Below the pieces are notes generated by a model. It had not been told where the DNA came from. It made no database searches and saw only the letters and a list, made by a program, of their open reading frames with translations. From the IMG/VR virus record IMGVR_UViG_3300019763_000006, positions 24,326 to 88,325 of that record: DNA of 64,000 nt, one strand, 5' to 3'. Below, piece by piece: positions 13,983 to 56,643 of the stretch; position 1 is the stretch's first letter, and every line of letters starts with the position of its first letter. The translations under genes and the position numbers were made by a program. This DNA comes from a virus.

Positions 13983-14996
13983 ATGGCAAATAATAACGTA
14001 AAAATGAATACATTAAGGAATAGAGCTACTAAATCAGATGATATAACAGAAGAAATGTGGAATAAAGTAAATGAATCAAGTAGATATTTTTATGATGAAT
14101 ATTTTAAATTGAATTCTAATTTAAGCCCAGATACATTGATACAATATAAAAGTGCATTAAGAATATTCTTTTATTATATTTATGAAAATTGTAAAAATAA
14201 AAATATATGGAAGATAAAAAAGACAGATTTTATAAAATATGTTAATTTTTTAGAAAATAATGGGCTATCTTCAAGTGCGATTAAAGTTAAAAGATATGCT
14301 GTGAGTAGTTTTTGTAATACGATGGAAATTATATCAGAGGAAATAGAAGAAGACGATGATTATCCAGATATGTGTACTTTTAGACATTTTGCAAGAGTCA
14401 AAATTGAGGTTGCGAAAAATCAAACTTACGAAAAAATTCCAATCACAAGAGCAGAATATGAAAAGGTTATGGAAAAATTAAAAGAAGATAATGATATATT
14501 AGCAATTGCTTATTGGGGAATAGCTTTTAATATTGGAGCAAGAAGAAGTGAAATGTTACAATTAAAAAGTGATTTAAGTATTAGGGAGAAACAAGATGGT
14601 AAATCTTTTTATTTAAGTGATAATATAAGATTAAAAGGTAAAGGTAAAACGGGTAAGGTTGAAAAATATATGATAAATGATGAAGCCATGGAGTATATTA
14701 AATTTGCAGTTGATAATAAAGGATATGATAGTGAATACATTTTTCAAAATAAAAATGGCAAACCTTTAAGTAGAGCATGGGTGAATAAAATGTTTAAAGA
14801 TAAAATTTCACCGATATTAGGTAGAAGAAGTACTTCACATAATATGAAAAATAGTTGTGCTACTTATTTATTAGAAAACGGGTTCGATATCAAACTTGTA
14901 AGTAAATATGTTTGTCATCATGAGAGTGTAGATGTTACTATGAAGTTTTATGATTTAAGGAATAATGATGAAGAAATAAATGAAATGTTTAAATAA
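13983..14996 (+). CDS. Tyrosine recombinase/integrase family protein
   Basis: Core-binding-like N-domain (LSPDTLIQYKSAL), GARRSE (R), LKGKG (K), SHNMK at the HxxR position, CHHES (H), TMKFYD (Y). Confidence 0.9.
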   Translation: MANNNVKMNTLRNRATKSDDITEEMWNKVNESSRYFYDEYFKLNSNLSPDTLIQYKSALRIFFYYIYENCKNKNIWKIKKTDFIKYVNFLENNGLSSSAIKVKRYAVSSFCNTMEIISEEIEEDDDYPDMCTFRHFARVKIEVAKNQTYEKIPITRAEYEKVMEKLKEDNDILAIAYWGIAFNIGARRSEMLQLKSDLSIREKQDGKSFYLSDNIRLKGKGKTGKVEKYMINDEAMEYIKFAVDNKGYDSEYIFQNKNGKPLSRAWVNKMFKDKISPILGRRSTSHNMKNSCATYLLENGFDIKLVSKYVCHHESVDVTMKFYDLRNNDEEINEMFK

Positions 14997-15088
14997 TTCA
15001 AGATATTCTATATTTGTGATAAGATTCAATGAAAATAATGATTAATTTAAAGATTTTAATTAAATAAAAAAAATTTTAATTAAAACTA

Positions 15089-15118
15089 TTGACTTTGATA
15101 TTTAAAGTATGATATAGT
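15089..15118 (+). promoter_or_regulatory. Sigma-A-type promoter P1
   Basis: TTGACT-18-TATAGT with extended TG and an A-rich UP element. Confidence 0.65.
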
Positions 15119-15229
15119 GAAGTTAAGTTAAATAACTCTTTAATGGAGAAATTTATTTAACTCGACATCCTTTATCGACAAGAGTTTAGTCATTCTATAT
15201 AAAAATGGCTAATTAAAAAATAAAAAGTA

Positions 15230-15259
15230 TTGACATCATTATATTGTATATGATAATAT
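15230..15259 (+). promoter_or_regulatory. Sigma-A-type promoter P2
   Basis: TTGACA-18-TAATAT with extended TG, upstream of ORF 15308. Confidence 0.7.
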
Positions 15260-15307
15260 TAAATAGTATCAAGTAGCAAATATTAGATTATTAAAGGAGA
15301 TTGAATT

Positions 15308-15526
15308 ATGGAAAAATATGAAGAGAGAGCGAGAGAACGTTTTGAAAAATTTAAAGAGGATTATAAATATGATAATCTTGATGAATTCAGATGGGAACAA
15401 AAATTTCTATTAGAAGAAGAATTTAAAACTATTCCAATTACAGAAACACGAAGGAGAAATGATGTATTAAAACTTATTAATGATATGACTGGTAGGATAA
15501 TACAAGATAGTTTTGTAAAAAGATAA
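15308..15526 (+). CDS. Small charged hypothetical protein
   Basis: 72 aa, AAGGAG RBS, own promoter. Confidence 0.65.
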   Translation: MEKYEERARERFEKFKEDYKYDNLDEFRWEQKFLLEEEFKTIPITETRRRNDVLKLINDMTGRIIQDSFVKR

Positions 15527-15579
15527 TAGCATGATAAATATATATTAATCAAGATTGTTATTTTATGACGAATTAATTT

Positions 15580-15752
15580 ATGGGGTCAACTTATAATCGT
15601 CAGCGGTTATAGGTAAGAATTATAATATATGTCATATGGCATGGTTGCTATAAACATAAACAAATTATAGTACTTTAAAAAATAGGTGTTTGTAACTTCA
15701 AAACAAACAGGTGAGGCACTTCATCTAGATAGTGAGAAATCTCAAGTGCCAA
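15580..15752 (+). ncRNA. Candidate structured ncRNA of unknown family
   Basis: Noncoding and locally GC-richer; hairpins cttataatcg/cggttatagg, tgtttgt/acaaaca and ggcactt/aagtgcc. Confidence 0.35.
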
Positions 15753-15783
15753 AATACATATTAAAAATATTTTTAAAAAAGCA

Positions 15784-15813
15784 TTGACAATAATATGTGA
15801 ATTATGACATACT
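15784..15813 (+). promoter_or_regulatory. Sigma-A-type promoter P3
   Basis: TTGACA-18-CATACT with extended TG. Confidence 0.55.
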
Positions 15814-15911
15814 TGAATAGAAAGTTATTTAAAATATTTTTTATAATTTTGTTTGATAATATAAACTTTGGATAGTCACTAATTATTAAACTAAAAAATA
15901 TTATAAAAGTA

Positions 15912-15940
15912 TTGACAAAATTAATTTAATAATATATACT
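15912..15940 (+). promoter_or_regulatory. Sigma-A-type promoter P4
   Basis: TTGACA-17-TATACT upstream of ORF 15985. Confidence 0.75.
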
Positions 15941-15984
15941 AAAATAGTAAAGATTAAAAATTAAATTTTAAAGGAGAGAGCAAA

Positions 15985-16611
15985 ATGGAAAAAATGACAT
16001 TACACAAAGCATTAGGAGAATTAAAAATATTAGATTCAAGGATTGAAAAATCAATTAATAATGGAGTATTTATCACATCAAATAAGAACTCTAATGAAAA
16101 AATTGATGGAATGAGCATTAAAGATTATGAAGATAAAATTATTAAATCTTCATATGATAAAGTAACTGATTTGATTAGTAGAAGAAGAAAAATCAAAGAT
16201 GCATTGACTCATAAAAATTCAGAAATTGAATTTGAAGTGAATAATGAAAAATTTACAATCGCAACTGCTATTGATAGAAAAAATAATCTAAATAAAGAGA
16301 AATTGTTTTTAAATCAATTAAAAAATCAATATTCAAATACGACAAGTATGGTTAATAGAGTTAATTTGCACTTAGAAGAAGAAGCTTTAAATGAAGCTCA
16401 ACGCTTTTTTGAAAACAAAGATAATGTAGATGTTAAAAAAGTAAAAGCTTTACAAGATGATTATATAGAAAATAGAAAAATGAATCTAATAGACCCATTA
16501 GGAATTAGAGAAAAAATTGAAGAATTAGAATTAAGTATCCAAGTTTTTGAAAGAGAAATTGATTATAAATTATCTGAATTAAATGCAATAAATTTTATTG
16601 AAATAGAATAA
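15985..16611 (+). CDS. Coiled-coil protein resembling the DIP1984/septicolysin-like family
   Basis: MTLHKALGELKILDSRI, TIATAIDRK, DPLGI and EIDYKLSELNA..IEI motifs; family call is from memory and unverified. Confidence 0.6.
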   Translation: MEKMTLHKALGELKILDSRIEKSINNGVFITSNKNSNEKIDGMSIKDYEDKIIKSSYDKVTDLISRRRKIKDALTHKNSEIEFEVNNEKFTIATAIDRKNNLNKEKLFLNQLKNQYSNTTSMVNRVNLHLEEEALNEAQRFFENKDNVDVKKVKALQDDYIENRKMNLIDPLGIREKIEELELSIQVFEREIDYKLSELNAINFIEIE

Positions 16612-16755
16612 AACAATTAATAAGATTATATCCATCATTAAACGAAACCATAAACAATATACATTTAGATTGGTTTTATGCAATTACTAACTAAATTAAA
16701 AAATAAAAGAAATTGCATACTATGCTTATAGTAAACATTAATAAAAAACAAAAAT

Positions 16756-16785
16756 ATTTGGTATAATACCATTTGGTATAATACC
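16756..16785. repeat. 15-bp tandem duplication of a palindromic unit
   Basis: atttggtataatacc x2. Confidence 0.9.
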
Positions 16786-16792
16786 ATAAGTA

Positions 16793-16897
16793 TAAAAGTT
16801 TAAAACTGTAAAAATAAAAGTTTAAAATTGTAAAAATAAAAGTTTAAATTGTGTAAAGATTAAATTGTAAAAATTAATGTTATAAAAATATATAAAA
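16793..16897 (+). repeat. 22-bp tandem repeat built from 6-10-nt TAA(A) subunits
   Basis: taaaagtttaaaactgtaaaaa / taaaagtttaaaattgtaaaaa / taaaagtttaaattgtgtaaaga, then degenerate units. Confidence 0.85.
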
Positions 16898-16984
16898 TCT
16901 TACACCTACAGTTTGTAGTATGTATATTTTGACTCATGGGTTTCTGGTAAGCTGTTTAGTGGTGGATAATCTTTTAAGTAATAT

Positions 16985-17060
16985 AAGGGTGTAGTTCAGA
17001 GAGTAGAACATCGGTCTCCAAAATCGAATGTCGTAGGTTAAAGTCCTACCACCCTTGCCA
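16985..17060 (+). tRNA. trnW: tRNA-Trp (CCA)
   Basis: 76-nt cloverleaf: acceptor aagggtg/caccctt, anticodon loop ctCCAaa, T stem gtagg/cctac, encoded 3' CCA; D and T loops atypical. Confidence 0.9.
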
Positions 17061-17195
17061 AAATTAAATTATGGCATTCTAAAAGATGTAAGTCCATTTA
17101 TAAAAATATATCACATGAATTACAACAAAGAACTTAGAACAAAAATGTTATGTTAGAATTGTCTACATTTCCTTGAGCAAGAAGTGTAGCGTACA

Positions 17196-17252
17196 TAAAA
17201 GTTAAATTTTATTGATAAAATTAGATTTTTAGATGTTGAAATTTCAACGTTT
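17196..17252. repeat. Dispersed bipartite element, copy 1
   Basis: taaaa-gttaaa-tttta, then agatgttgaaatttcaacgttt at 17231; a second core lies at 17216-17231. Confidence 0.75.
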
Positions 17253-17510
17253 ATAAAAATGATAAAATTAAATATTTGGTTTGCAGACATATAAACACTA
17301 TGTTTATGCAAGGGCGGTGTAGATATGGGTTATGAAAGTATATTGTAAGATATAATGAGTAATAATGGCAATATTGAGGTAGGATTAATTTTAGATGTAG
17401 AGATAGGTTGAGAAGTCATGAGCTTAACTGACAAGGTGTCAACTTTCGAGGCATTTTCTCTATATTTATCTTGGTGAGAAGTAGATATACGGAAGGTATG
17501 TGATTTTATA

Positions 17511-19037
17511 GTGTGTGAAGACAAGAAAAAATTAATAAAATTTGAGGATATTAATAATATTGATTTAAGCAAATTTCCAAAATGGAATATACAACAAGTA
17601 GAAGAATTAAAAGATTTTATAATAAAAGATTCTGAACATATTGAAAAAGTTTGCGATATTATAAATAAAACACCAAGAGAAGTAGCATTTTTAATAAGTG
17701 ATTTAGTATTAAATTTAAAATCATCAAATTTTAGAGTTAGATTTAATTTAAAATGTGATATTTGTGGCAAGATAGTAAATCGAACTGTTTTTAGAGTAAA
17801 GAGGTCTAAAAATATATATTGTAGTAGTGAATGTTCAACTAAAAGTCATATGAATGGTCGATATGTAAAATGTATGAATTGCGGAAAAATGGTTTATAAA
17901 AATCCTACAAATCAAGCAAAATCTAAAAATTTATTTTGTAGCAAAAAATGTGCAGATATTTATAATTCAAAACAAAAAATAACTAGAGTTACCCTTATTT
18001 GTAAATTTTGTGGGAAAGAATATGAAGTTAGTAAATACAAAGAATTTACATCTAAATATTGTTCTAATGAATGTAGACATAAATATGAATCAAAATATAA
18101 TATTGGGATTAATAATAAAAGATTTAGTTCAGAAATGGTAAAATGTGACTATTGTGGAGAATATCATTTGAAATCTCAATGCCATTTAAAAGAAGGTAAA
18201 AAGAATTTTTGTAGTAATATATGTAGACAAAAATGGTTTAGTGAAGTATATTCGCAAAATGAAGATTATAAAGAATATAGACGTAAAAATGCAGTAAAAA
18301 TACTAGAAGATGGACTGATTCCACAAGTAAATACATCTATACAATTAAAAATAAATAAATTACTATCTGATTTAAATATAAACTATATTAATGAGAAAGG
18401 GTTTAAATATTATTCAATTGATAATTATTTATACGAGTATAACTTATGTATAGAGGTTATGGGAACATATTGGCATACTGACCATAGAAAATATAAAGAA
18501 ATTAATTATTCAAAACAAGTTGATAGAATAATTAAAGATAAGGCAAAACAATCTTATATAACAAACCATTATAATACTCATATTTTATATTTATGGGAAT
18601 ATGATATAGATAATTATTATAATGAATGCAAGAAATTAATTTTGGAATTTGTTAAAAATAAAGGTATTTTAAATAAATATCATAGCTTTAATTATACAAA
18701 TGATATAAACGGTGTAGCATATATGAATATGGAGATAAAAAGTGTTAATAAAATAGTCAATACTACTGTTAAAAAAGAGAGATGTAAAAAAGATGAATCA
18801 AAATGGATAAAATATAAATGTGATTATTGTGGTAAAGAATGTGAAGAATTAATATCACATTATAAAAAGAAAGATAATCATTGTTGTTCAAGAAATTGTG
18901 CATATAAACTTAAAACTTTTAATCATTCTATAAGAACTAAATGTTCAAAATGTGGTAGGACAATTTTTATTAAAGAAAAACAATATAAAACATACAAAAA
19001 ATATGTTTGTAAAGATAATATTTTTAATAAAAATTAA
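17511..19037 (+). CDS. Multi-Zn-finger Vsr/DUF559-like (homing) endonuclease
   Basis: Repeated CxxC...CSxxC fingers flank IDNYL..NLCIEVMGTYWH...DKAK...LWEYDI, a Vsr-like nuclease core. Confidence 0.75.
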   Translation: MCEDKKKLIKFEDINNIDLSKFPKWNIQQVEELKDFIIKDSEHIEKVCDIINKTPREVAFLISDLVLNLKSSNFRVRFNLKCDICGKIVNRTVFRVKRSKNIYCSSECSTKSHMNGRYVKCMNCGKMVYKNPTNQAKSKNLFCSKKCADIYNSKQKITRVTLICKFCGKEYEVSKYKEFTSKYCSNECRHKYESKYNIGINNKRFSSEMVKCDYCGEYHLKSQCHLKEGKKNFCSNICRQKWFSEVYSQNEDYKEYRRKNAVKILEDGLIPQVNTSIQLKINKLLSDLNINYINEKGFKYYSIDNYLYEYNLCIEVMGTYWHTDHRKYKEINYSKQVDRIIKDKAKQSYITNHYNTHILYLWEYDIDNYYNECKKLILEFVKNKGILNKYHSFNYTNDINGVAYMNMEIKSVNKIVNTTVKKERCKKDESKWIKYKCDYCGKECEELISHYKKKDNHCCSRNCAYKLKTFNHSIRTKCSKCGRTIFIKEKQYKTYKKYVCKDNIFNKN

Positions 19038-30496: not shown

Positions 30497-32332
30497 ATGG
30501 CAGTTTGGGGAAATGAAATTATTAATGAAAAGAAAAAAGAAAAAAATAAATGTAAACATATTGATAAACATTTATTAGGTGATTCATTAAAAGAAGAAAT
30601 AGATAATAAAAGAAATAAAACAGATAAAATAGAATATAGTGATGTTGTAAATGTAAATATATCTTTAAGTGATTTAGGTGTAGATATTAATAATTTATTA
30701 CAGATTATGCAAAATAAAATTAATAGTAATTCTAAATTAAATTATAATAATATAACGAATAAAAATATTATTTATAATGATTTAGCTGAAACATTAAAAT
30801 CTTTAATAAATTCAAAATTAGACAGCGATTCACAGTTAAATTTTAATAATATTGTAGGAATAAATATTACAAAAGAAAAATTAAGTTTAAGTTTGCAAAA
30901 TGAATTGGATAACAAATTAGACGGTAATTCAACATTACCATATAGTCAAATTACAGATATTTCTATCACAAAAGATGATTTAAATAGTAGTTTAAAAAAT
31001 GAAATAGATAATAAATTAACAAATGAGTCAATTATTAGTTGGGAAAATATTTCTGGAAAACCTCAATTAGCTGATGGAAGTTGGAAACCTCCTGTAGAAA
31101 ATTTTTCTGATTTGCCTTTAAATAATAATCAAGATGGAGATTTAAGAATTGTTCTGTCTCAAAATATCGTTTATACATGGACAGATAAAGACACTGGAGT
31201 TTTTCATTGGGAAGAAATTGGTGCAAATGATACAAATGTTGAATGGACACATATTCAGAATAAACCTAGTACATTTACACCATCTAATCATAGCCATAAT
31301 GATTTATATTATACAGAAAGTGAAATACAATCATTATATTATAATAAAACCTATTTGAATGAATATTTACATCAGCATAGCAATAAAAATATTTTAGATA
31401 CTATTGATTCTTCTAAAATAAATAATTGGGATAAAGTAACTTTAAAAGCAAATGCTATAGATTTAGGGAATCATATAGGTAATGCAACTATGCATACTAC
31501 TTTTAGTGATAAAACAAAATGGAATCAGGTTGTAAATAAAGTTGATAAAATTAGCGGTAAAAGTTTATCAACGGAGGATTTTACTACTAATTTAAAAGAT
31601 AAATTAGAAGCATTATCAGAGTCAGCCAGTATTGATTATACAAATATGCATAATGATTTAGAAAGTCATATTACTAATAGTAGTGTGCATGTTACTAGTA
31701 TAGAAAAACAAAAATGGGATGATGTATTAAATAAAGTTAATCAAGAGGTGTTTGAAAACCATTCTAATAATTCTAATATCCATGTTACTAGTACAGAAAA
31801 GAATTTAATAAATCAGATAACTTCTAAAGCATCAAATGTGACATTAAATAATCATATTAATAATGAGGATGTCCACGTTACTAGTATAGAAAAAACAAAG
31901 TGGAATAATATGATTCCGTTAAGTGGTACAACAGAACTAGAAGGGGATATAATACCAAATAATGGTGGATGTAATTTAGGAAATGGTAGTAGAAGATTTT
32001 CACGTATTTATGGGAGTTTTGGATTTTTTTCATTTTTATATAATTTATCTTATTTTTATTGTTCTCCAACTTTCCCTGATAACTATTATTTAAGTTTTGG
32101 AAGTGGAAAAGATTTAAGATTCTATCACAAGTCATCAAATGACATATCATACATCTCTACCCAACAAAATCATGACACAATCTTTTCAGCAAATCCAACT
32201 GGTTCAGCTGAAATACCTATGTTGACGATGAAAAGTGATGGAAGTAAATTAGTAGCAGATGTTGAAATTGAGAATGTTGTGACGGTAGGAGCTAATCAAC
32301 CAAAATGTGGCTTATGGTTAAAAGTAGTATAG
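30497..32332 (+). CDS. Tail fibre protein with His-containing repeats
   Basis: WTHIQNKPSTFTPSNHSH, NKVDKISGKSLSTEDFT and H..N...HVT..EK.KW repeats. Confidence 0.7.
   Translation: MAVWGNEIINEKKKEKNKCKHIDKHLLGDSLKEEIDNKRNKTDKIEYSDVVNVNISLSDLGVDINNLLQIMQNKINSNSKLNYNNITNKNIIYNDLAETLKSLINSKLDSDSQLNFNNIVGINITKEKLSLSLQNELDNKLDGNSTLPYSQITDISITKDDLNSSLKNEIDNKLTNESIISWENISGKPQLADGSWKPPVENFSDLPLNNNQDGDLRIVLSQNIVYTWTDKDTGVFHWEEIGANDTNVEWTHIQNKPSTFTPSNHSHNDLYYTESEIQSLYYNKTYLNEYLHQHSNKNILDTIDSSKINNWDKVTLKANAIDLGNHIGNATMHTTFSDKTKWNQVVNKVDKISGKSLSTEDFTTNLKDKLEALSESASIDYTNMHNDLESHITNSSVHVTSIEKQKWDDVLNKVNQEVFENHSNNSNIHVTSTEKNLINQITSKASNVTLNNHINNEDVHVTSIEKTKWNNMIPLSGTTELEGDIIPNNGGCNLGNGSRRFSRIYGSFGFFSFLYNLSYFYCSPTFPDNYYLSFGSGKDLRFYHKSSNDISYISTQQNHDTIFSANPTGSAEIPMLTMKSDGSKLVADVEIENVVTVGANQPKCGLWLKVV
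31688..31903 (+). repeat. 93-bp (31-aa) intragenic repeat
   Basis: ca(t/c)gttactagta(t/c)agaaaa at 31688, 31781 and 31874. Confidence 0.8.
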
Positions 32333-32339
32333 CAGTAAA

Positions 32340-32431
32340 TAAAAGTAAGGTTTTAATGACTTTTTGAAAATTTAAAACGTTGAAATTTCAACGTTTGTAA
32401 GCATGGTAAAAATTGTAAAAAGTTAATTTTA
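32340..32431. repeat. Dispersed bipartite element, copy 2 (symmetric)
   Basis: taaaa-gtaagg-tttta, 19 bp, perfect palindrome aaacgttgaaatttcaacgttt (32375-32396), 19 bp, taaaa-agttaa-tttta. Confidence 0.85.
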
Positions 32432-42615: not shown

Positions 42616-45615
42616 TTATTCCATACTGTTTTTATTATAAAATTGTCTTTGAGATAATTCTAATTTTCTTTCTTGCTTATAACTATCTTGTTTTACCATA
42701 TATCCTACAATTTTGATACCTTTTGTAACAGATTTTCCTCCACATATAGGACATACATCACCAAAAAAGCTGTGGTCTTTTTCACAAATGTCAATAAGGC
42801 TTACTTTACTATAATATTTTACACCTTTTCTTGCTAATTGTAATGCGAAATCCCATGCTTCTTCAAAAGTATCAAAATCTTCTCCCATTGAAACATGTAA
42901 AATCGAACCCCCATCACAATATTTATCTAATTTTGCACTTTCAATTCTATTGTAAAGAGAAGCATGTTCTTTTAGTGGAATCCATTGATTTCCATAAATA
43001 TTATAATCTTTACCTAATAATTGATTTACTTTTCTATTTCCTAAGACTAAACGGTCTTTTTTGTTTGATTTGATTGCCGAAGATTCACCTGGAATTATTT
43101 CTGAATTTGACAAAAATCCATATTCATTAATAGTATTTTCGTTCTCTTTAATTATGGTATCTAGTATATCTTTTGCTATTTTAAACCCTAAATCATTGTA
43201 ATAACATCCGCTACTATCGTAATTTAATCCATTAAATATTTTTATTGCTTCAAAAATTCCATTAATACCAACGGTTGCGAATTGGTCTTCTAGATTCATC
43301 ATATTGTGACTATATAATGGTAATAATCCATTATTTATTAATTCTTTTAAAATTTCTCGATGAGCATAATGATACTTATGAATTAATTTAACTTTATTCT
43401 TGATTACTTCAATAAAATTATCATAATTATCATAGTTTTCCATTGATAATCTTGATAAATTTAATGTTACAACTTTTGTAGAACCTACATTTAAATCAGA
43501 ACCACCAATGCTATTAAATATTTTTTTAGTATCTTGTATCTTTTTCTTATCTGAAACCAATCTGCAATTATGCGTTATTATACCATTTGGTAAAGTAAAA
43601 TATGGTTCTTCTTTATTGTCCATTGTAAAACAGTACACATCTTTGTTAGTATTCTCAATTTTTTCTATAGAGTTTATTTTAAAATAAATAGAGTTATTAA
43701 TAGTTTTAAAAATATTTTTCATATTTCTTTTATGTTTAGGGTTATACCATCTTATACAATATACTGGGTAATTTCTTTTATATTCTTCTCCTCTTATAAC
43801 TATTGGTTCATCAGTTCTATCAGAACAGTCTATAATTGAATGCATTCCTAAACTTGTGATTAGAGCTTCTAATTGTTCTGTCATTTTTTTAGAAGTAGTA
43901 TAAATCCTATTAGAATTTCCACCATCTGTGATATAGTATCCGTCTAAAATACCTTTTCTAAATTCTAAGGATTGTATTAAACAGTTTAAATTTAATTCTT
44001 TTTCTTGGGAATAGTTTCCAGATGTCCATGTTTTTATAAAGTCTTTTAACTCATACGAAGCAATAGCAACAGGATAAACATTATTATATTCTGCGTGAAG
44101 TTTTACTTCTGTATCTATATTTAATTGTTTTATTACTTTATTTAGGATAGGTAATAATTTAATATATTTCGTTTCATTTAAAGATAATTGAATTACAGGT
44201 TTATGATTTTCTTGTTTTTGCTCAATACTTCCATCCCCTAAATAAGAACCAATTAATACTCCTTGTTCATATGTTAACCCTAAATCTGCTTCTGGATAAG
44301 TGCCAAGTTCTTTTGTATTAAAAAGTAAATAATCATTAGTTGTTAATTTGTCGCTTCTAATATCTCCATTTATAGAAGGGTTTAAATGGTCTGGGGTTAC
44401 TAATATTTCTTTTTTATTTGAAGTAGAAATTTTATATAGAGTATTTGATTGAGTTTTAACTATTTGTCCTTTAGCCCAACTACCATTGTGAAAAATAGAA
44501 CCATTTTGTTTATATTTATATGATTTATTATAAAAAGATTCAAATGTTTCACATACTACTCCTCCTAATGGATTTTTTGTTATAATTTTTTGATTTTTAT
44601 CAAAACAACAGCTTGCTAAACTTGTTACTTCTTCAACGTTCATTATATTAACTTCATTAAATCCATGAGTGTAATTATGTTTAACTACCATCTTTGCAGT
44701 ATCTTCGTCTACATATTCTCCATCTCTAAAAACCAAAGAAGCTGATATTACAGGGAATGTATACCATTTCTTTTTTCTTAAATCAGTTGCATATTCTAAG
44801 AAACTGCTTTGAAATTCAAATAACTCTTCTAAATAGTCTGTAATCAATGTTCCATCAGGATATTTTTTATTCCCAAAAAATTTTAAGATATGGTCTATAT
44901 CTAAAATAGATATATTAGTATATGCTGATTGAACACCACTTTTCAAGTATGGTTGATTTAAATTAAAAATAAATTCTTGAAATTTTTGATTCCTATATTT
45001 TGTTTGTTTATCATGTGTCATATCAGCTGTATCTATTTTATAAAAGTAATATGCATATATCAAATAATCAGGAATTCCTACAGCTCCAGATTGCATATTT
45101 GTTGCATAAGATATAAATTCTAAAATATGATGATTAAAAGTATCCCAATGTTTTGGTCTTTCTGCTTTCATTTCTCCAATAAAAAACAATCCTTTTTCAA
45201 CAATTGGCTCAACCGAAAAAGCAAAGCAATAAGGCATATAAGATGAAGAATGAGAGTCGTGTTCATAAAGTTCTCCGTTTACAGCTGATTCTAAAAATTC
45301 ATCTGCCACCTCACTCCCAAATTCTTTTGACATCTGAGAATATATTTTGTTTCTTGATAATAATTTTGTAAATGGTTTTTGAGATTCATTTAACATTGTA
45401 CAAATATTTCTACCTGTTACATTTGCATTGTCATCTATTGTAGCATCTGCAACTGTCGAAGTGTTTAAAAATCCTTTAAAAAAATCGCATGTATCTAATT
45501 GAGAGGGGCTCATACCTTCAATTTTCATTAATTCATCCCCGTATTTATTATTCAATTCCTCTACTTTATTTTTAAATCTTGTATTTAATGTCATTGGAAA
45601 TTTATATTCTGCCAT
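42616..45615 (-). CDS. nrdD: Anaerobic (class III) ribonucleotide reductase with intein
   Basis: YEHD..YMPYC, QSGAVG, TFPV, SC/CRL, GSTKVVTLN, TVGING, PGES, Zn site and IVGY glycyl-radical loop. Confidence 0.95.
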   Translation of the reverse strand: MAEYKFPMTLNTRFKNKVEELNNKYGDELMKIEGMSPSQLDTCDFFKGFLNTSTVADATIDDNANVTGRNICTMLNESQKPFTKLLSRNKIYSQMSKEFGSEVADEFLESAVNGELYEHDSHSSSYMPYCFAFSVEPIVEKGLFFIGEMKAERPKHWDTFNHHILEFISYATNMQSGAVGIPDYLIYAYYFYKIDTADMTHDKQTKYRNQKFQEFIFNLNQPYLKSGVQSAYTNISILDIDHILKFFGNKKYPDGTLITDYLEELFEFQSSFLEYATDLRKKKWYTFPVISASLVFRDGEYVDEDTAKMVVKHNYTHGFNEVNIMNVEEVTSLASCCFDKNQKIITKNPLGGVVCETFESFYNKSYKYKQNGSIFHNGSWAKGQIVKTQSNTLYKISTSNKKEILVTPDHLNPSINGDIRSDKLTTNDYLLFNTKELGTYPEADLGLTYEQGVLIGSYLGDGSIEQKQENHKPVIQLSLNETKYIKLLPILNKVIKQLNIDTEVKLHAEYNNVYPVAIASYELKDFIKTWTSGNYSQEKELNLNCLIQSLEFRKGILDGYYITDGGNSNRIYTTSKKMTEQLEALITSLGMHSIIDCSDRTDEPIVIRGEEYKRNYPVYCIRWYNPKHKRNMKNIFKTINNSIYFKINSIEKIENTNKDVYCFTMDNKEEPYFTLPNGIITHNCRLVSDKKKIQDTKKIFNSIGGSDLNVGSTKVVTLNLSRLSMENYDNYDNFIEVIKNKVKLIHKYHYAHREILKELINNGLLPLYSHNMMNLEDQFATVGINGIFEAIKIFNGLNYDSSGCYYNDLGFKIAKDILDTIIKENENTINEYGFLSNSEIIPGESSAIKSNKKDRLVLGNRKVNQLLGKDYNIYGNQWIPLKEHASLYNRIESAKLDKYCDGGSILHVSMGEDFDTFEEAWDFALQLARKGVKYYSKVSLIDICEKDHSFFGDVCPICGGKSVTKGIKIVGYMVKQDSYKQERKLELSQRQFYNKNSME
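43567..44607 (-). mobile_element. Intein (347 aa) with LAGLIDADG endonuclease inside nrdD
   Basis: Starts CFDKNQ, block B VTPDH, GSYLGDG and DGYYITDGG motifs, ends ITHN followed by C; removal restores LASC-CRL. Confidence 0.92.
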
Positions 45616-56565: not shown

Positions 56566-56622
56566 TAAAATACCAATTTTATTCACTTTTTTCGATTTTT
56601 AAACGTTGAAATTTCAACATTT
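56566..56622. repeat. Dispersed bipartite element, copy 5
   Basis: taaaa-taccaa-tttta, then aaacgttgaaatttcaacattt at 56601. Confidence 0.85.
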
Positions 56623-56643
56623 GCTAAAAAATTAACAATATAT

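What the first reader, a model, noticed from the sequence alone, without database searches (positions are those of the whole stretch)
15985..16973. Candidate novel ribonucleoprotein: coiled-coil protein plus a ~350-nt structured RNA
Seen: promoter P4 drives a 208-aa all-helical protein. Ten nt after its stop begins a noncoding region whose ends pair over about 20 bp (16622-16643 with 16954-16973, G-U pairs fixing the + strand). Nested helices follow (gaaaccat/atgggtttc; aatatacat 16656-16664 with 16920-16928; atgcttat 16722-16729 with 16786-16793), along with a pseudoknot and a single-stranded periodic TAAA tract. tRNA-Trp starts 11 nt later, so RNase P cleavage could define the 3' end. Inference: an oligomer of the protein (DIP1984/septicolysin-like, unverified) binds one repeat per subunit, giving a protein-ncRNA system such as a type III-like toxin-antitoxin pair, anti-defence sponge or scaffold. 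I cannot assign it to a named RNA family.
Basis: partly seen in the sequence, partly recalled or inferred. Interest (0 to 1): 0.85.

Follow-up and report, generated by a model that had tools for sequence, protein, structure and literature searches.

The report
Knotted phage RNA with partner gene
The stretch between a small phage gene and a tryptophan tRNA encodes a real, elaborately knotted non-coding RNA with a track of roughly 7-base repeats that always travels with that gene in many phages (T5 included) and some bacteria, and nobody knows what the pair does.

Summary
Observation confirmed. Window 16622-16973 (+) is a ~352-nt structured RNA. Its closing helix, two long-range pseudoknots, a 5' H-type pseudoknot and a 3' junction are kept by compensatory changes in 47 diverse relatives: 92.3% of cells paired vs 71.1% shuffled and 33-45% slid; 39 of 45 pairs change on both sides. 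G-U outnumbers A-C 174 to 39, which fixes the + strand. Models built without the window each find it once in 64 kb.

Its 5' ~95 nt is a divergent RAGATH-27 (Rfam RF03100, an orphan 86-nt motif; 27 bits here, below the cut-off). The other three quarters match no Rfam family.

The upstream 208-aa gene (phrog_1491) and the RNA are linked both ways: 153 of 160 homologue loci (all 7 misses are truncated), 77 of 80 bacterial loci, 19 of 21 RNA-first hits, phage T5 and four other cultured phages.

Function is unknown; a protein-RNA particle is the best guess.

Earlier agents of this scan found the same pair on other DNA. I found no published description.

The parts
15912..15940 (+).
   Evidence: Best consensus match in 15600-17600, 11 of 12. 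It is a consensus match only: 18 sites were found against 17.3 expected from shuffles.
15985..16611 (+). 208-aa protein gene, family phrog_1491
   Evidence: ORF. Full-length PHROG match, E 7.9e-48. No Pfam, NCBIfam or PADLOC family. The family has 3463 50%-identity representatives at E<=1e-3, and the best 150 are 204-228 aa.
16622..16973 (+). Whole structured RNA, about 352 nt, from the 5' arm to the 3' arm of closing helix P1
   Evidence: Covariation on A3. Profiles and a covariance model built without the window hit 16795-16971 (E 2.9e-10) and 16628-16722 (32.3 bits, E 3.5e-4); each is the only significant hit in 64 kb.
16622..16643 (+). P1 5' strand. The family register is 16631-16643; the window-specific extension 16622-16629 bulges A16630/U16631.
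   Evidence: Pairs with 16954-16973. 13 family pairs are 96.2% paired and 12 change on both sides.
16645..16651 (+). P2 5' strand (AAACC core); a pseudoknot with the 3' domain
   Evidence: Columns 278-282 with 905-910: 92.5% paired. 16648-16940 and 16649-16939 are paired in 47 of 47 sequences, as CG, UA or UG.
16656..16664 (+). 5' strand of the long-range helix to the P4 loop (aatatacat)
   Evidence: Pairs with 16920-16928. Over 7 family pairs, 92.7% of cells are paired and 6 pairs change on both sides.
16663..16696 (+). Stem A hairpin (ATTTAG 16663-16668 with CTAAAT 16691-16696)
   Evidence: RNAalifold finds the family's 8-bp stem A on A5, and all 8 pairs have compensatory changes. The window row is one column out of register in MAFFT, so its 6 bp are read directly.
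16678..16718 (+). Stem B (ATGCAATT 16678-16685 with AATTGCAT 16711-16718). Its 5' strand lies in the loop of stem A, giving an H-type pseudoknot. It is the hairpin modelled by Rfam RAGATH-27.
   Evidence: Rfam alignment. 46 of 47 relatives have a complement of 6 nt or more at this place, mean 8.1 vs 5.8 shuffled. The column count is only 57.9% because of register shifts.
16719..16793 (+). Lineage-specific variable region: two 15-nt tandem copies ATTTGGTATAATACC and a possible closing helix 16722-16729 with 16786-16793
   Evidence: Tandem repeat. The region is not alignable among relatives, where it holds other inserts, some tRNA-like. The helix is untested.
16794..16898 (+). A-rich repeat tract: 13 units of type YAAA(G/A), period about 7.3 in the window and 7 in the family
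   Evidence: RNAalifold leaves it almost unpaired.
16899..16951 (+). 3' domain: P3 (16899-16903 with 16947-16951), P3b (16909-16911 with 16944-16946), P4 (16917-19 with 16932-34) with its loop 16920-16931, and the P2 3' strand 16936-16943
   Evidence: P3 99.6%, P3b 93.6% and P4 81.4% paired, with changes on both sides in 4 of 5, 3 of 3 and 3 of 4 pairs. The window's P4 is one column out of register.
16954..16973 (+). P1 3' strand
   Evidence: In L082, G16962A turns a U-G pair into U-A.
16985..17060 (+). tRNA-Trp (CCA), 11 nt after the RNA; RNase P cleavage at its 5' end would free the RNA's 3' end (inferred)
   Evidence: ARAGORN. Rfam tRNA, 65 bits.

Best explanation
Window 15912-17060 is one transcription unit: promoter, a 208-aa gene of family phrog_1491, a ~352-nt non-coding RNA (16622-16973, + strand) and tRNA-Trp.

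The RNA is a divergent full-length member of a widespread family of which Rfam holds only the 5' fifth, as the orphan motif RAGATH-27. A 12-20 bp closing helix, a 5' H-type pseudoknot and two long-range pseudoknots lock the 5' and 3' domains together. They leave a ~105-nt A-rich tract of 13 repeats of about 7 nt, plus a variable insert, looped out between them.

Gene and RNA form a two-part module that moves as a unit among phages and into bacterial chromosomes.

The mechanism I think most likely is that the protein binds its own RNA, probably as several copies along the repeat tract, to give a ribonucleoprotein particle. In this phage its 3' end would be freed by RNase P at the tRNA. The particle would act in trans during infection. 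The setting among tRNA genes hints at tRNA or translation-linked conflict.

Shown: the RNA structure, its strand, family membership and the two-way gene-RNA linkage. Inferred: co-transcription, the processing step, binding, stoichiometry and biological role.
For: Structure: 45 pairs in 7 helices are 92.3% paired, against 71.1% shuffled (0 of 500) and 33-45% slid. 39 of 45 pairs have changes on both sides. The covariation score is 0.664 vs 0.256. RNAalifold, run independently, recovers 32 of the 45 pairs and stem A.

Strand: 174 G-U cells vs 39 A-C cells out of 2095.

Membership: bona fide RAGATH-27 hits (78-97 bits) sit just after the homologous gene in 7 of 17 loci. The window's weak hit, 27 bits, sits at the same place. 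Models built without the window hit it once each.

Linkage:
- 153 of 160 loci.
- 77 of 80 bacterial loci.
- 5 of 5 cultured phages tested, T5 among them.
- RNA-first search: 19 of 21, and the other 2 lack upstream DNA.
- No other protein neighbour is shared by more than 8 of 46 loci, apart from a 13-locus cluster of antisense ORFs overlapping the gene, which I take to be spurious.

One unit:
- No terminator-like site was found in window 15600-17600.
- In Lysinibacillus the order is promoter-like site, gene, RNA, then a 13-bp terminator, amid housekeeping genes.
- A 98%-identical cassette, 15827-17544, is shared with L082, whose flanks diverge.

Repeats: lag-7 periodicity; a median of 12 units (range 8-14).
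Against:
- The protein is mildly acidic (pI 5.64; family median 5.72, net charge -3), which is not typical of an RNA binder, although seven conserved K/R lie in the N-terminal half.
- It matches no known RNA-binding family.
- Large phage RNAs that lie near tRNA genes, such as ROOL and GOLLD, are reported to assemble without protein (abstract of 10.1101/2024.12.08.627333, seen in the listing). So linkage need not mean contact.
- Expression of this locus was not shown.
- The window's 5' domain fails Rfam's own cut-off (27 vs 76.1 bits).
- In L082, 2 of the 4 differences inside the RNA weaken proposed pairs (T16941G in P2, T16787A in the variable helix).
Confidence: 0.55

Rival explanations
1. 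The RNA works without touching the encoded protein. It could be a self-assembling or host-factor-binding RNA, with the repeat tract soaking up a host RNA-binding protein or RNase. The gene would then be a co-transcribed helper (chaperone, processing or regulatory factor) or simply share the operon.
For: ROOL and GOLLD are large phage-linked RNAs that are often located near tRNA genes (PMC5737381, passages read) and are reported as RNA-only complexes (abstract in the listing). The protein is acidic and matches no RNA-binding family. The RNA's knotted frame is kept by RNA-RNA pairs alone.
Against: The two-way linkage, with no other shared neighbour, across proteins only 27-49% identical and in unrelated chromosomal settings, is hard to keep up without a direct functional tie. 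Rfam ROOL and GOLLD models do not match.
Confidence: 0.22
2. A toxin-antitoxin-like or defence/counter-defence pair: the protein is harmful or is an effector, and the repeat RNA holds it in check, in the manner of a type III system.
For: It is a compact two-part module found in variable settings in phages and in chromosomes, with its own promoter-like site and terminator. That is the usual habit of such pairs. The RNA carries tandem repeats.
Against: The defining anatomy of type III systems (recalled, not from a call) is repeats of about 34-36 nt upstream of the toxin gene with a terminator between them. Here the units are about 7 nt, lie downstream, sit inside an ornate single RNA, and no terminator was found between the gene and the RNA. 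No PADLOC model matches the window's protein or a phage homologue at E<=0.1; the Lysinibacillus homologue gave only a weak PDC-S26 match (E 0.015, 12.3 bits). No toxicity data exist.
Confidence: 0.1
3. A cis-acting element: a structured 3' UTR that stabilises or regulates the mRNA of the upstream gene, or a leader that helps process the tRNA(s) downstream.
For: It lies on the same transcript as the gene. It abuts a tRNA within 11 nt in 21 of 68 tRNA-bearing loci, including this one.
Against: About 350-460 nt with four pseudoknot-type contacts and a conserved repeat tract is far more than a stabiliser needs. 39 of 107 distinct loci have no tRNA downstream in the locus, and most bacterial loci, including all Lysinibacillus and Sporosarcina ones, have none within 1.5 kb. 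So a tRNA-leader role cannot be general.
Confidence: 0.07
4. A DNA-level element: replication origin iterons, a recombinase or attP site next to the integrase gene, or a small inverted-repeat transposable element.
For: AT-rich direct repeats (22 nt x 2.6, 15 nt x 2) flanked by a 20-bp inverted repeat. A tyrosine integrase gene lies 1.6 kb upstream.
Against: Helices are kept by compensatory changes, with a 174:39 excess of G-U over A-C. The helices cross as pseudoknots. Orientation is fixed relative to the gene. One copy per genome. Chromosomal copies end in a terminator. Integrases are not a shared neighbour.
Confidence: 0.02

Closest known systems
RAGATH-27 RNA motif (Rfam RF03100; 86 positions, orphan candidate sRNA)
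   Same: Same place (starting 10-30 nt after the stop of the same gene family), same strand, same hairpin (stem B) and the same conserved 5' words (CGAAAAC...UAAAC). True hits of 78-97 bits occur in 7 of 17 homologous loci. The window aligns end to end with the model.
   Different: The window scores 27 bits against the 76.1-bit cut-off. The Rfam model covers only about a fifth to a quarter of the RNA. It marks as unpaired the very stretches that form P1, P2, the loop-contact helix and stem A. It has no repeat tract, no 3' domain and no protein partner.
ROOL and GOLLD large ornate RNAs
   Same: Large, highly structured RNAs of unknown function, in phages, prophages and also outside them, often beside tRNA genes (PMC5737381, passages read).
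   Different: No match to their Rfam models. They are reported as RNA-only multimers (abstract in the listing) with no dedicated protein gene. This RNA is smaller, carries a repeat tract of about 7-nt period and is tied to one gene.
Repeat-RNA/oligomeric-protein pairs: TRAP with the trp leader, CsrA with CsrB/RsmZ (recalled, not from a call)
   Same: An RNA showing a dozen short, evenly spaced, purine-rich words that could each seat one protein subunit. This is how I think it works.
   Different: No sequence relation. Those proteins are encoded elsewhere and the RNAs are simple leaders or hairpin arrays, not a knotted frame. Binding here is untested.
Type III toxin-antitoxin systems (ToxIN and similar; recalled)
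   Same: A two-part protein plus repeat-RNA module that is mobile between phages, plasmids and chromosomes.
   Different: Repeat length, gene order and the intervening terminator differ, and no toxin-family match was found for the window's protein.
Ro60 with Y RNA / YrlA (recalled)
   Same: A protein-RNA pair encoded side by side. Some relatives of this RNA carry a tRNA-like module (T arm, capped acceptor stem, D arm) in the variable region (by eye).
   Different: The protein is unrelated in size and family. The window's own RNA has no tRNA-like insert.

Membership tests
RAGATH-27 (Rfam RF03100) | Score at or above Rfam's gathering cut-off (76.1 bits) | tested here: not met
   27.0 bits, E 1.5, window 16631-16717, model positions 1-86 of 86.
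RAGATH-27 (Rfam RF03100) | The model's 7-bp hairpin, with the conserved AAAGAA word before its 3' strand | tested here: met
   ATGCAATT 16678-16685 pairs with AATTGCAT 16711-16718, preceded by AAAAGAAA.
RAGATH-27 (Rfam RF03100) | Homology to sequences that pass the cut-off (same gene upstream, same position, detectable by a model trained on them) | tested here: met
   7 of 17 homologous loci pass the cut-off at the same place. Covariance model R1 was built from 44 relatives without the window; 2 of the 46 non-window representatives, L072 and L111, were dropped as badly aligned. It hits 16628-16722 at 32.3 bits, rough E 3.5e-4, and the next hit has E 0.89.
Full-length RNA family (RAGATH-27 5' domain + repeat tract + 3' domain; unnamed in public libraries) | Closing helix P1 joining the 5' conserved word to the segment after GCUG | tested here: met
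   Window 16631-16643 with 16954-16966, all 13 standard pairs. Family: 96.2% paired.
Full-length RNA family (RAGATH-27 5' domain + repeat tract + 3' domain; unnamed in public libraries) | Two long-range pseudoknots (P2, and the 5' word with the P4 loop) and the P3/P3b/P4 junction | tested here: met
   The window forms 36 of the 45 family pairs by column. The 9 misses are 6 stem A pairs and 2 P4 pairs that are one column out of register, and form when read directly, plus A16650-G16938 in P2.
Full-length RNA family (RAGATH-27 5' domain + repeat tract + 3' domain; unnamed in public libraries) | A-rich repeat tract of 8-14 units with a period of about 7 nt | tested here: met
   The window has 13 units. 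Its autocorrelation peaks at 7-8, 14-16 and 22, so its period is 22/3 rather than exactly 7. A sequence profile built without the window hits 16795-16971, E 2.9e-10.
phrog_1491 protein family | Full-length HMM match | tested here: met
   E 7.9e-48, residues 1-208 on profile positions 2-210 of 211. The family label 'tail fiber protein' is not supported by anything I saw.
DIP1984 / DUF6847 (PF20935) | Match to the Pfam model | tested here: not met
   No hit for the protein. PF20935 is not among the 25 of 34 families listed for 18 relatives. No hit in the whole 88-kb record at E<=10. The Atlas's nearest named cluster carries DUF6847 on only 16% of members, score 0.87.
DIP1984 / DUF6847 (PF20935) | Shared fold with the solved family member | not testable with these tools
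PDB 3kdq ('uncharacterized conserved protein') reaches E 0.011 with profile A1 but is absent at E<=1 with profile A4. That 3kdq is DIP1984 is my recollection only.
Type III toxin-antitoxin | Tandem RNA repeats of about 34-36 nt upstream of the toxin gene, separated from it by a terminator (features recalled) | tested here: not met
   The units are about 7 nt and lie downstream of the gene; no terminator-like site was found between them.
Type III toxin-antitoxin | Toxin of a known endoribonuclease family | tested here: not met
   No PADLOC or Pfam match for the window's protein.
ROOL / GOLLD | Match to the Rfam models | tested here: not met
   Not among the matches at E<=10 in window 14000-19000, nor at gathering score in 17 related loci.

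The most novel reading that the evidence does not exclude
An undescribed ribonucleoprotein machine. The knotted RNA frame displays 12-14 repeats of about 7 nt, each seating one copy of the phrog_1491 protein, so that a ring or short filament forms. The units read NN-YAA-AG. This is complementary to positions 32-36 of anticodon loops with anticodon UUN (Lys, Gln, Glu and ochre-suppressor type; my own reading plus recalled tRNA numbering). The boldest version is therefore a phage and cell device that lines up or shields such tRNAs, the classic targets of anticodon nucleases, or decoys the nucleases themselves. The pair occurs in T5, E. coli phage 4MG, Bacillus and C. difficile phages and Lysinibacillus chromosomes, so it would be a widespread and so far unrecognised player in host-phage RNA conflict.
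Probability: 0.4. Interest if true: 0.9.

Novelty: new variant of a known kind. Interest (0 to 1): 0.8.

Why it matters
If this is right, a gene-plus-RNA module has been sitting unannotated in many phage genomes. The protein family has 3463 50%-identity representatives in public data. It is found in 189 deposited phage records, in model phage T5 and in bacterial chromosomes.

The gene is mislabelled 'tail fiber protein'. The RNA is catalogued only as an 86-nt orphan fragment.

The full RNA is one of the more intricate bacterial and phage RNAs, with four crossing helices in about 350 nt. Unlike ROOL, GOLLD, OLE or raiA, it comes with an obvious candidate protein partner. That makes the long-standing question of what large ornate phage RNAs do directly testable in E. 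coli with T5 or 4MG.

For annotation, the immediate gains are:
- a full-length model to replace RF03100;
- a correction of the 'tail fiber' label;
- an explanation for the roughly 400-nt 'empty' gap in many phage tRNA regions.

Tried and rejected
Expression: the look-up of sequencing runs (kind rna) on window 15985-17060 listed no RNA holder. This says nothing about expression.

Closest relatives: proteins P0003-P0008 (62-67% identical) would have allowed a close-range test of the window-specific helices. The first related-loci scan with the single protein found nothing.

Sequence-level substitutes gave nothing firm:
- PDB by phmmer: none.
- PDB by profile A1: 3kdq at E 0.011. By profile A4: lost.
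- NCBIfam on 55 members: only scattered weak hits.
- Pfam on 18 members: none consistent.
- PF20935 on the own record: none.
- ESM Atlas: unnamed viral clusters.
- PADLOC: none for the window's protein.

Helices tried and not adopted:
- A brute-force listing of all column pairs that are at least 85% paired was useless, because G-U tolerance in T/G-rich columns gives hundreds of false pairs.
- Stem B counted by MAFFT columns reaches only 57.9% because of register shifts. It was replaced by a per-sequence test.
- A possible fifth contact, UAAAC 16651-16655 with GUUUA 16842-16846 in the middle of the tract, was proposed by RNAalifold. It is 34-46 of 45-47 paired but almost invariant, so it is neither supported nor excluded.
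- The internal promoter-like site 16738-16767 (TTAATA-18-TATAAT with TG) is one of 18 matches against 17.3 expected, so it is not evidence.

Conserved protein neighbours were looked for and not found.

Literature:
- No paper in the held library contains 'RAGATH-27'.
- 'RF03100', 'DUF6847' and 'phrog_1491' gave nothing; 'DIP1984' occurs once, in an unrelated Acinetobacter paper.
- Searches on T5 stable or non-coding RNA and on GOLLD/ROOL since 2023 showed no description of this RNA in the listed titles and abstract starts.
- The main text of PMC5737381 has no occurrence of 'RAGATH'. Its supplementary files, which may hold the RAGATH-27 drawing and comments, were closed.
Full report
WHAT IS THERE. 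The window is bases 24326-88325 of an 88,325-bp IMG/VR virus record estimated 69% complete. Its G+C content is about 25%. Its genes are those of a large tailed phage: virion proteins, a 2047-aa ORF and a tyrosine integrase.

The finding covers three things:
- ORF 15985-16611 (+, 208 aa).
- A 373-nt ORF-poor spacer, 16612-16984.
- tRNA-Trp(CCA) at 16985-17060.

The stop codon ends at 16611. The 5' arm 16622-16643 starts 10 nt later and is complementary to 16954-16973, with two U-G pairs. The tRNA starts 11 nt after the 3' arm. The best promoter-like site nearby is TTGACA-17-TATACT at 15912-15940. No terminator-like site was found anywhere in 15600-17600.

IS IT MORE THAN CHANCE? A single-sequence fold is not decisive. 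The + strand gives -70.1 kcal/mol (z -3.87) and the - strand -63.2 (z -3.68). The answer came from relatives.

The protein matches PHROG family phrog_1491 over its full length (E 7.9e-48). It matches nothing in Pfam, NCBIfam or the PDB by sequence.

Homologues are plentiful:
- 189 deposited phage records.
- 245 of 290 candidate stretches in viral contigs.
- 431 of 487 in metagenome contigs.
- 168 of 228 in bacterial genome contigs.
- 3463 50%-identity representatives at E<=1e-3, of which the best 150 are all 204-228 aa.

In the 160 viral and metagenome loci that I kept, the gene is almost always followed by a long ORF-free stretch. In many of them the first tRNA starts about 370-560 nt after the gene.

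An Rfam scan of 17 such loci found RAGATH-27 (RF03100) at 78-97 bits in 7 of them. It always starts 10-30 nt after the stop codon, on the gene's strand. The window's own weak RAGATH-27 hit sits at exactly that place: 27 bits against a cut-off of 76.1, E 1.5, 16631-16717.

THE RNA FAMILY AND ITS STRUCTURE. Printing the downstream sequences side by side showed conservation far beyond the 86-nt Rfam motif. A-rich repeats of about 7 nt and a 3' domain end in ...GGCUGG-UAAAUGGUGGAUAA, which is complementary to the start of the RAGATH-27 motif.

A sequence profile of this 3' block was built from 40 sequences. It finds the block on the + strand just after the gene in 153 of 160 loci. The 7 misses all have 166 nt or less of contig after the gene.

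I reduced 148 usable regions to 107 distinct sequences, and these to 47 clusters at 85% identity or less. I then aligned the 47 representatives, the window among them (A3).

On A3 I tested a structure of 45 pairs in 7 helices:

| Measure | Observed | Shuffled | Partners slid |
|---|---|---|---|
| Cells forming standard pairs | 92.3% | 71.1% (0 of 500 reach the observed value) | 33-45% |
| Covariation score | 0.664 | 0.256 | at most 0.14 |

39 of the 45 pairs show changes on both sides. The structure was read from these same sequences, which favours it somewhat, but the margins are very large. RNAalifold, which knew nothing of my structure, recovers 32 of the 45 pairs. It cannot predict the 12 pseudoknot pairs. 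On a separate alignment without the window it finds stem A, with compensatory changes in all 8 pairs.

Across the pairs, G-U cells outnumber A-C cells 174 to 39 out of 2095. The functional strand is therefore the + strand and the molecule is RNA, not a DNA palindrome.

ANATOMY IN WINDOW COORDINATES.
- P1: 16631-16643 with 16954-16966. The window-specific extension is 16622-16629 with 16966-16973, bulging A16630/U16631.
- P2: AAACC 16645-16649 with GGUUU 16939-16943. A16650 and U16651 can pair with U16937 and A16936 if G16938 bulges. P2 crosses P3 and is therefore a pseudoknot.
- Loop contact: 16656-16664 with 16920-16928, the loop of P4. This is the second pseudoknot.
- Stem A: 16663-16668 with 16691-16696.
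- Stem B: 16678-16685, inside the loop of stem A, with 16711-16718. This gives an H-type pseudoknot. Stem B is the only helix in the Rfam model.
- Variable region: 16719-16793.
- Repeat tract: about 16794-16898.
- P3: 16899-16903 with 16947-16951.
- P3b: 16909-16911 with 16944-16946.
- P4: 16917-16919 with 16932-16934.

By alignment column the window forms 36 of the 45 family pairs. The 9 misses are 6 stem A pairs and 2 P4 pairs where MAFFT puts the window one column out of register, which form when read directly, plus A16650-G16938 in P2.

Stem B is badly aligned by MAFFT: 57.9% paired by column. Taken sequence by sequence, 46 of 47 relatives have a complement of 6 nt or more at that place, quite different in sequence from lineage to lineage (mean 8.1 nt vs 5.8 shuffled).

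The tract has a 7-nt period in the family: autocorrelation 0.504, 0.459 and 0.417 at lags 7, 14 and 21, against 0.32 shuffled. The median is 12 units (range 8-14). The window has 13 units, and its period is 22/3 because three units form the 22-nt tandem repeat. RNAalifold leaves the tract almost unpaired. One proposed contact, UAAAC with GUUUA, is too invariant to judge.

IS THE WINDOW A MEMBER? By Rfam's own threshold it is not: 27 vs 76.1 bits. By homology it is:
- A 3'-block profile built without the window hits the 64-kb window once, at 16795-16971 (+), E 2.9e-10.
- A covariance model of the 5' domain was built from 44 relatives without the window. L072 and L111 were dropped as badly aligned. 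It hits 16628-16722 end to end at 32.3 bits, rough E 3.5e-4. The next hit has E 0.89.

No Rfam family covers the rest of the RNA, at E<=10 in the window or at gathering score in the 17 loci.

LINKAGE OF GENE AND RNA. Forward, starting from the gene:
- 153 of 160 loci.
- 77 of 80 bacterial genome loci (76 of the 79 with at least 450 nt downstream, plus one shorter locus).
- All five cultured phages I fetched: Pectobacterium phage My1 (a T5 relative), C. difficile phage phiCDIF1296T, Bacillus phage Bc431v3 and E. coli phage 4MG (E 2e-8 to 2e-15), and T5 itself.

In T5, T5.085 (43505-44143, minus strand; 27.8% identical, E 1.7e-13) is followed by the block at 43150-43315 (E 1.3e-9). That gap carries no RNA annotation, although the record lists eight other 'stable RNAs'.

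21 of them are true RNA blocks (E<=1e-5). 19 of those have the protein gene directly upstream, and the other 2 have only 110-154 nt of upstream DNA in the stored locus.

Apart from a 13-locus cluster of antisense ORFs overlapping the gene, which I take to be spurious, no other protein is shared by more than 8 of 46 representative loci.

In Lysinibacillus and Sporosarcina the pair sits among housekeeping genes: an MFS transporter, DUF1963, a TrmA-like methyltransferase, a LytS/LytTR pair and an EamA transporter. There is no tRNA nearby. In Lysinibacillus the order is promoter-like site, gene, RNA, and then a 13-bp-stem terminator right after the RNA.

In a related metagenome phage (L082) a cassette from the promoter to just inside the next gene (window 15827-17544) is 98% identical, while the flanks are diverged or replaced. 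Of the 4 differences inside the RNA:
- G16962A upgrades a U-G pair in P1 to U-A.
- T16941G weakens P2.
- T16787A breaks a pair of the untested variable-region helix.
- T16878G lies in the tract.

HOW IT PROBABLY WORKS. Shown: a conserved, knotted, + strand RNA; a rigidly sized protein family; and a two-way, exclusive genetic linkage as one apparent transcription unit.

Inferred:
- The protein and the RNA act together, most simply by binding.
- The looped-out tract of a dozen evenly spaced YAAA(G) words is the obvious multi-site platform.
- In this phage RNase P would cut 11 nt after P1.

Abutment to a tRNA (11 nt or less) occurs in 21 of the 68 loci that have a downstream tRNA. 37 have the tRNA 30-100 nt away. 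39 of 107 distinct loci have none in the locus. The tRNA is therefore a frequent neighbour, not a requirement.

Against simple binding: the protein is mildly acidic (pI 5.64; family median 5.72), although K14, R19, K34, K39, R66, K71 and K99 are at least 90% conserved. No RNA-binding family matches.

My estimates:
- That the RNA is real and a family member: above 0.95.
- That gene and RNA are functionally coupled: about 0.9.
- That they bind each other: about 0.55.
- That several copies sit on the repeats: about 0.4.

The rivals are listed with their evidence in the fields above: an RNA that acts alone or on a host factor, a toxin-antitoxin-like pair, a cis-acting UTR or leader, and a DNA element.

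COMPARISON WITH WHAT IS KNOWN. The closest catalogued entity is RAGATH-27. The expansion of that name, and its origin in the 2017 survey of 224 motifs, are from my memory. The paper's main text contains no 'RAGATH', and its supplements were closed.

In kind it resembles ROOL and GOLLD: large, phage-linked and near tRNAs (PMC5737381, passages). It differs in having a dedicated protein gene.

In likely mode of action it resembles repeat-RNA/oligomer pairs such as TRAP-trp leader or CsrA-CsrB (recalled). It does not meet the anatomy of type III toxin-antitoxin systems.

It could not be tested by fold. The RefSeq and PHROG label 'tail fiber protein' has no support. In T5 the gene lies next to genes annotated as exonuclease, RNase H and thymidylate synthase.

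NOVELTY. My literature searches found no description of the full RNA, of its protein partner, or of the family in T5. Earlier agents of this scan reported the same gene-plus-RNA pair on other genomes. I re-derived the structure, the linkage, the T5 case and the bacterial copies independently here. Their claim of abundance in RNA-seq I could not test.

I class it as a new variant of a known kind. It is a divergent, full-length member of a family known publicly only as an 86-nt orphan fragment. The ribonucleoprotein reading is the bold but unproven part.

Noticed in passing
window 17061-17510: A further 450 nt without a convincing ORF lies between tRNA-Trp and the next gene. It is 97.6% identical in L082. 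The part 17179-17267 recurs at window 32322-32411 (74%) and, in both orientations, at 56575-56630. It contains the palindrome around 17226-17257.
   Followed up: partly
window 17511-19037: A 508-aa ORF rich in CxxC pairs, with weak HNH / homing-endonuclease PHROG matches (phrog_1271, E 1.8e-12). In L082 the first ~10 codons and the leader are shared, the N-terminal body differs, and the C-terminal part (18368-18974) is 82% identical. It looks like a mosaic free-standing endonuclease gene next to the tRNA.
   Followed up: partly
window 13983-14996: A tyrosine recombinase / integrase gene (Phage_integrase, E 3e-16) lies inside the structural-gene region of a large phage, 1.6 kb upstream of the module. 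No attP-like evidence was sought.
   Followed up: no
L090:805-1236, L103, L095, L009, L098, L137 and others (variable region of the RNA): Several relatives carry, inside the RNA's variable region, a tRNA-like module in permuted order: a T arm (GGCAGTTCGAGCCTGCC), then an acceptor-like stem capped by a tetraloop, then a D arm (TAGCTCAGTTGGGAGAGC). ARAGORN does not call it a tRNA. The window's RNA has two 15-nt GGTATAATACC-type repeats there instead.
   Followed up: partly
L166 (phage T5 record NC_005859, 43142-43504, minus strand): T5 has the gene (T5.085, labelled 'tail fiber protein') and the RNA 3' block in a stretch with no RNA annotation. The record lists eight other stable RNAs of unknown function elsewhere in the tRNA region. 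The 'tail fiber' label recurs in many RefSeq phage records and looks like a propagated error.
   Followed up: partly
L205 (Lysinibacillus sp. RS11 chromosome), L228 (Sporosarcina sp. ANT_H38 chromosome): Stand-alone chromosomal copies of the gene-plus-RNA pair (RNA roughly 290 nt) lie among housekeeping genes and have no tRNA nearby. The flanking genes differ between the two genera. Many of the 80 bacterial loci listed are Lysinibacillus, Sporosarcina and Solibacillus.
   Followed up: partly
L004:3654-3826 (-), L116:2925-2994 (+), L095:7213-7282 (+): Other Rfam orphan RNAs lie close to the module in related phages: FuFi-1 (66.7 bits), RAGATH-18 (63.9 bits) and int-alpA (40.7 bits). These tRNA islands are rich in structured RNAs.
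   Followed up: no
window 15308-15526: A 72-aa ORF between the integrase gene and the module has a weak PADLOC AbiB match (E 0.01, 13.4 bits). Probably chance.
   Followed up: no
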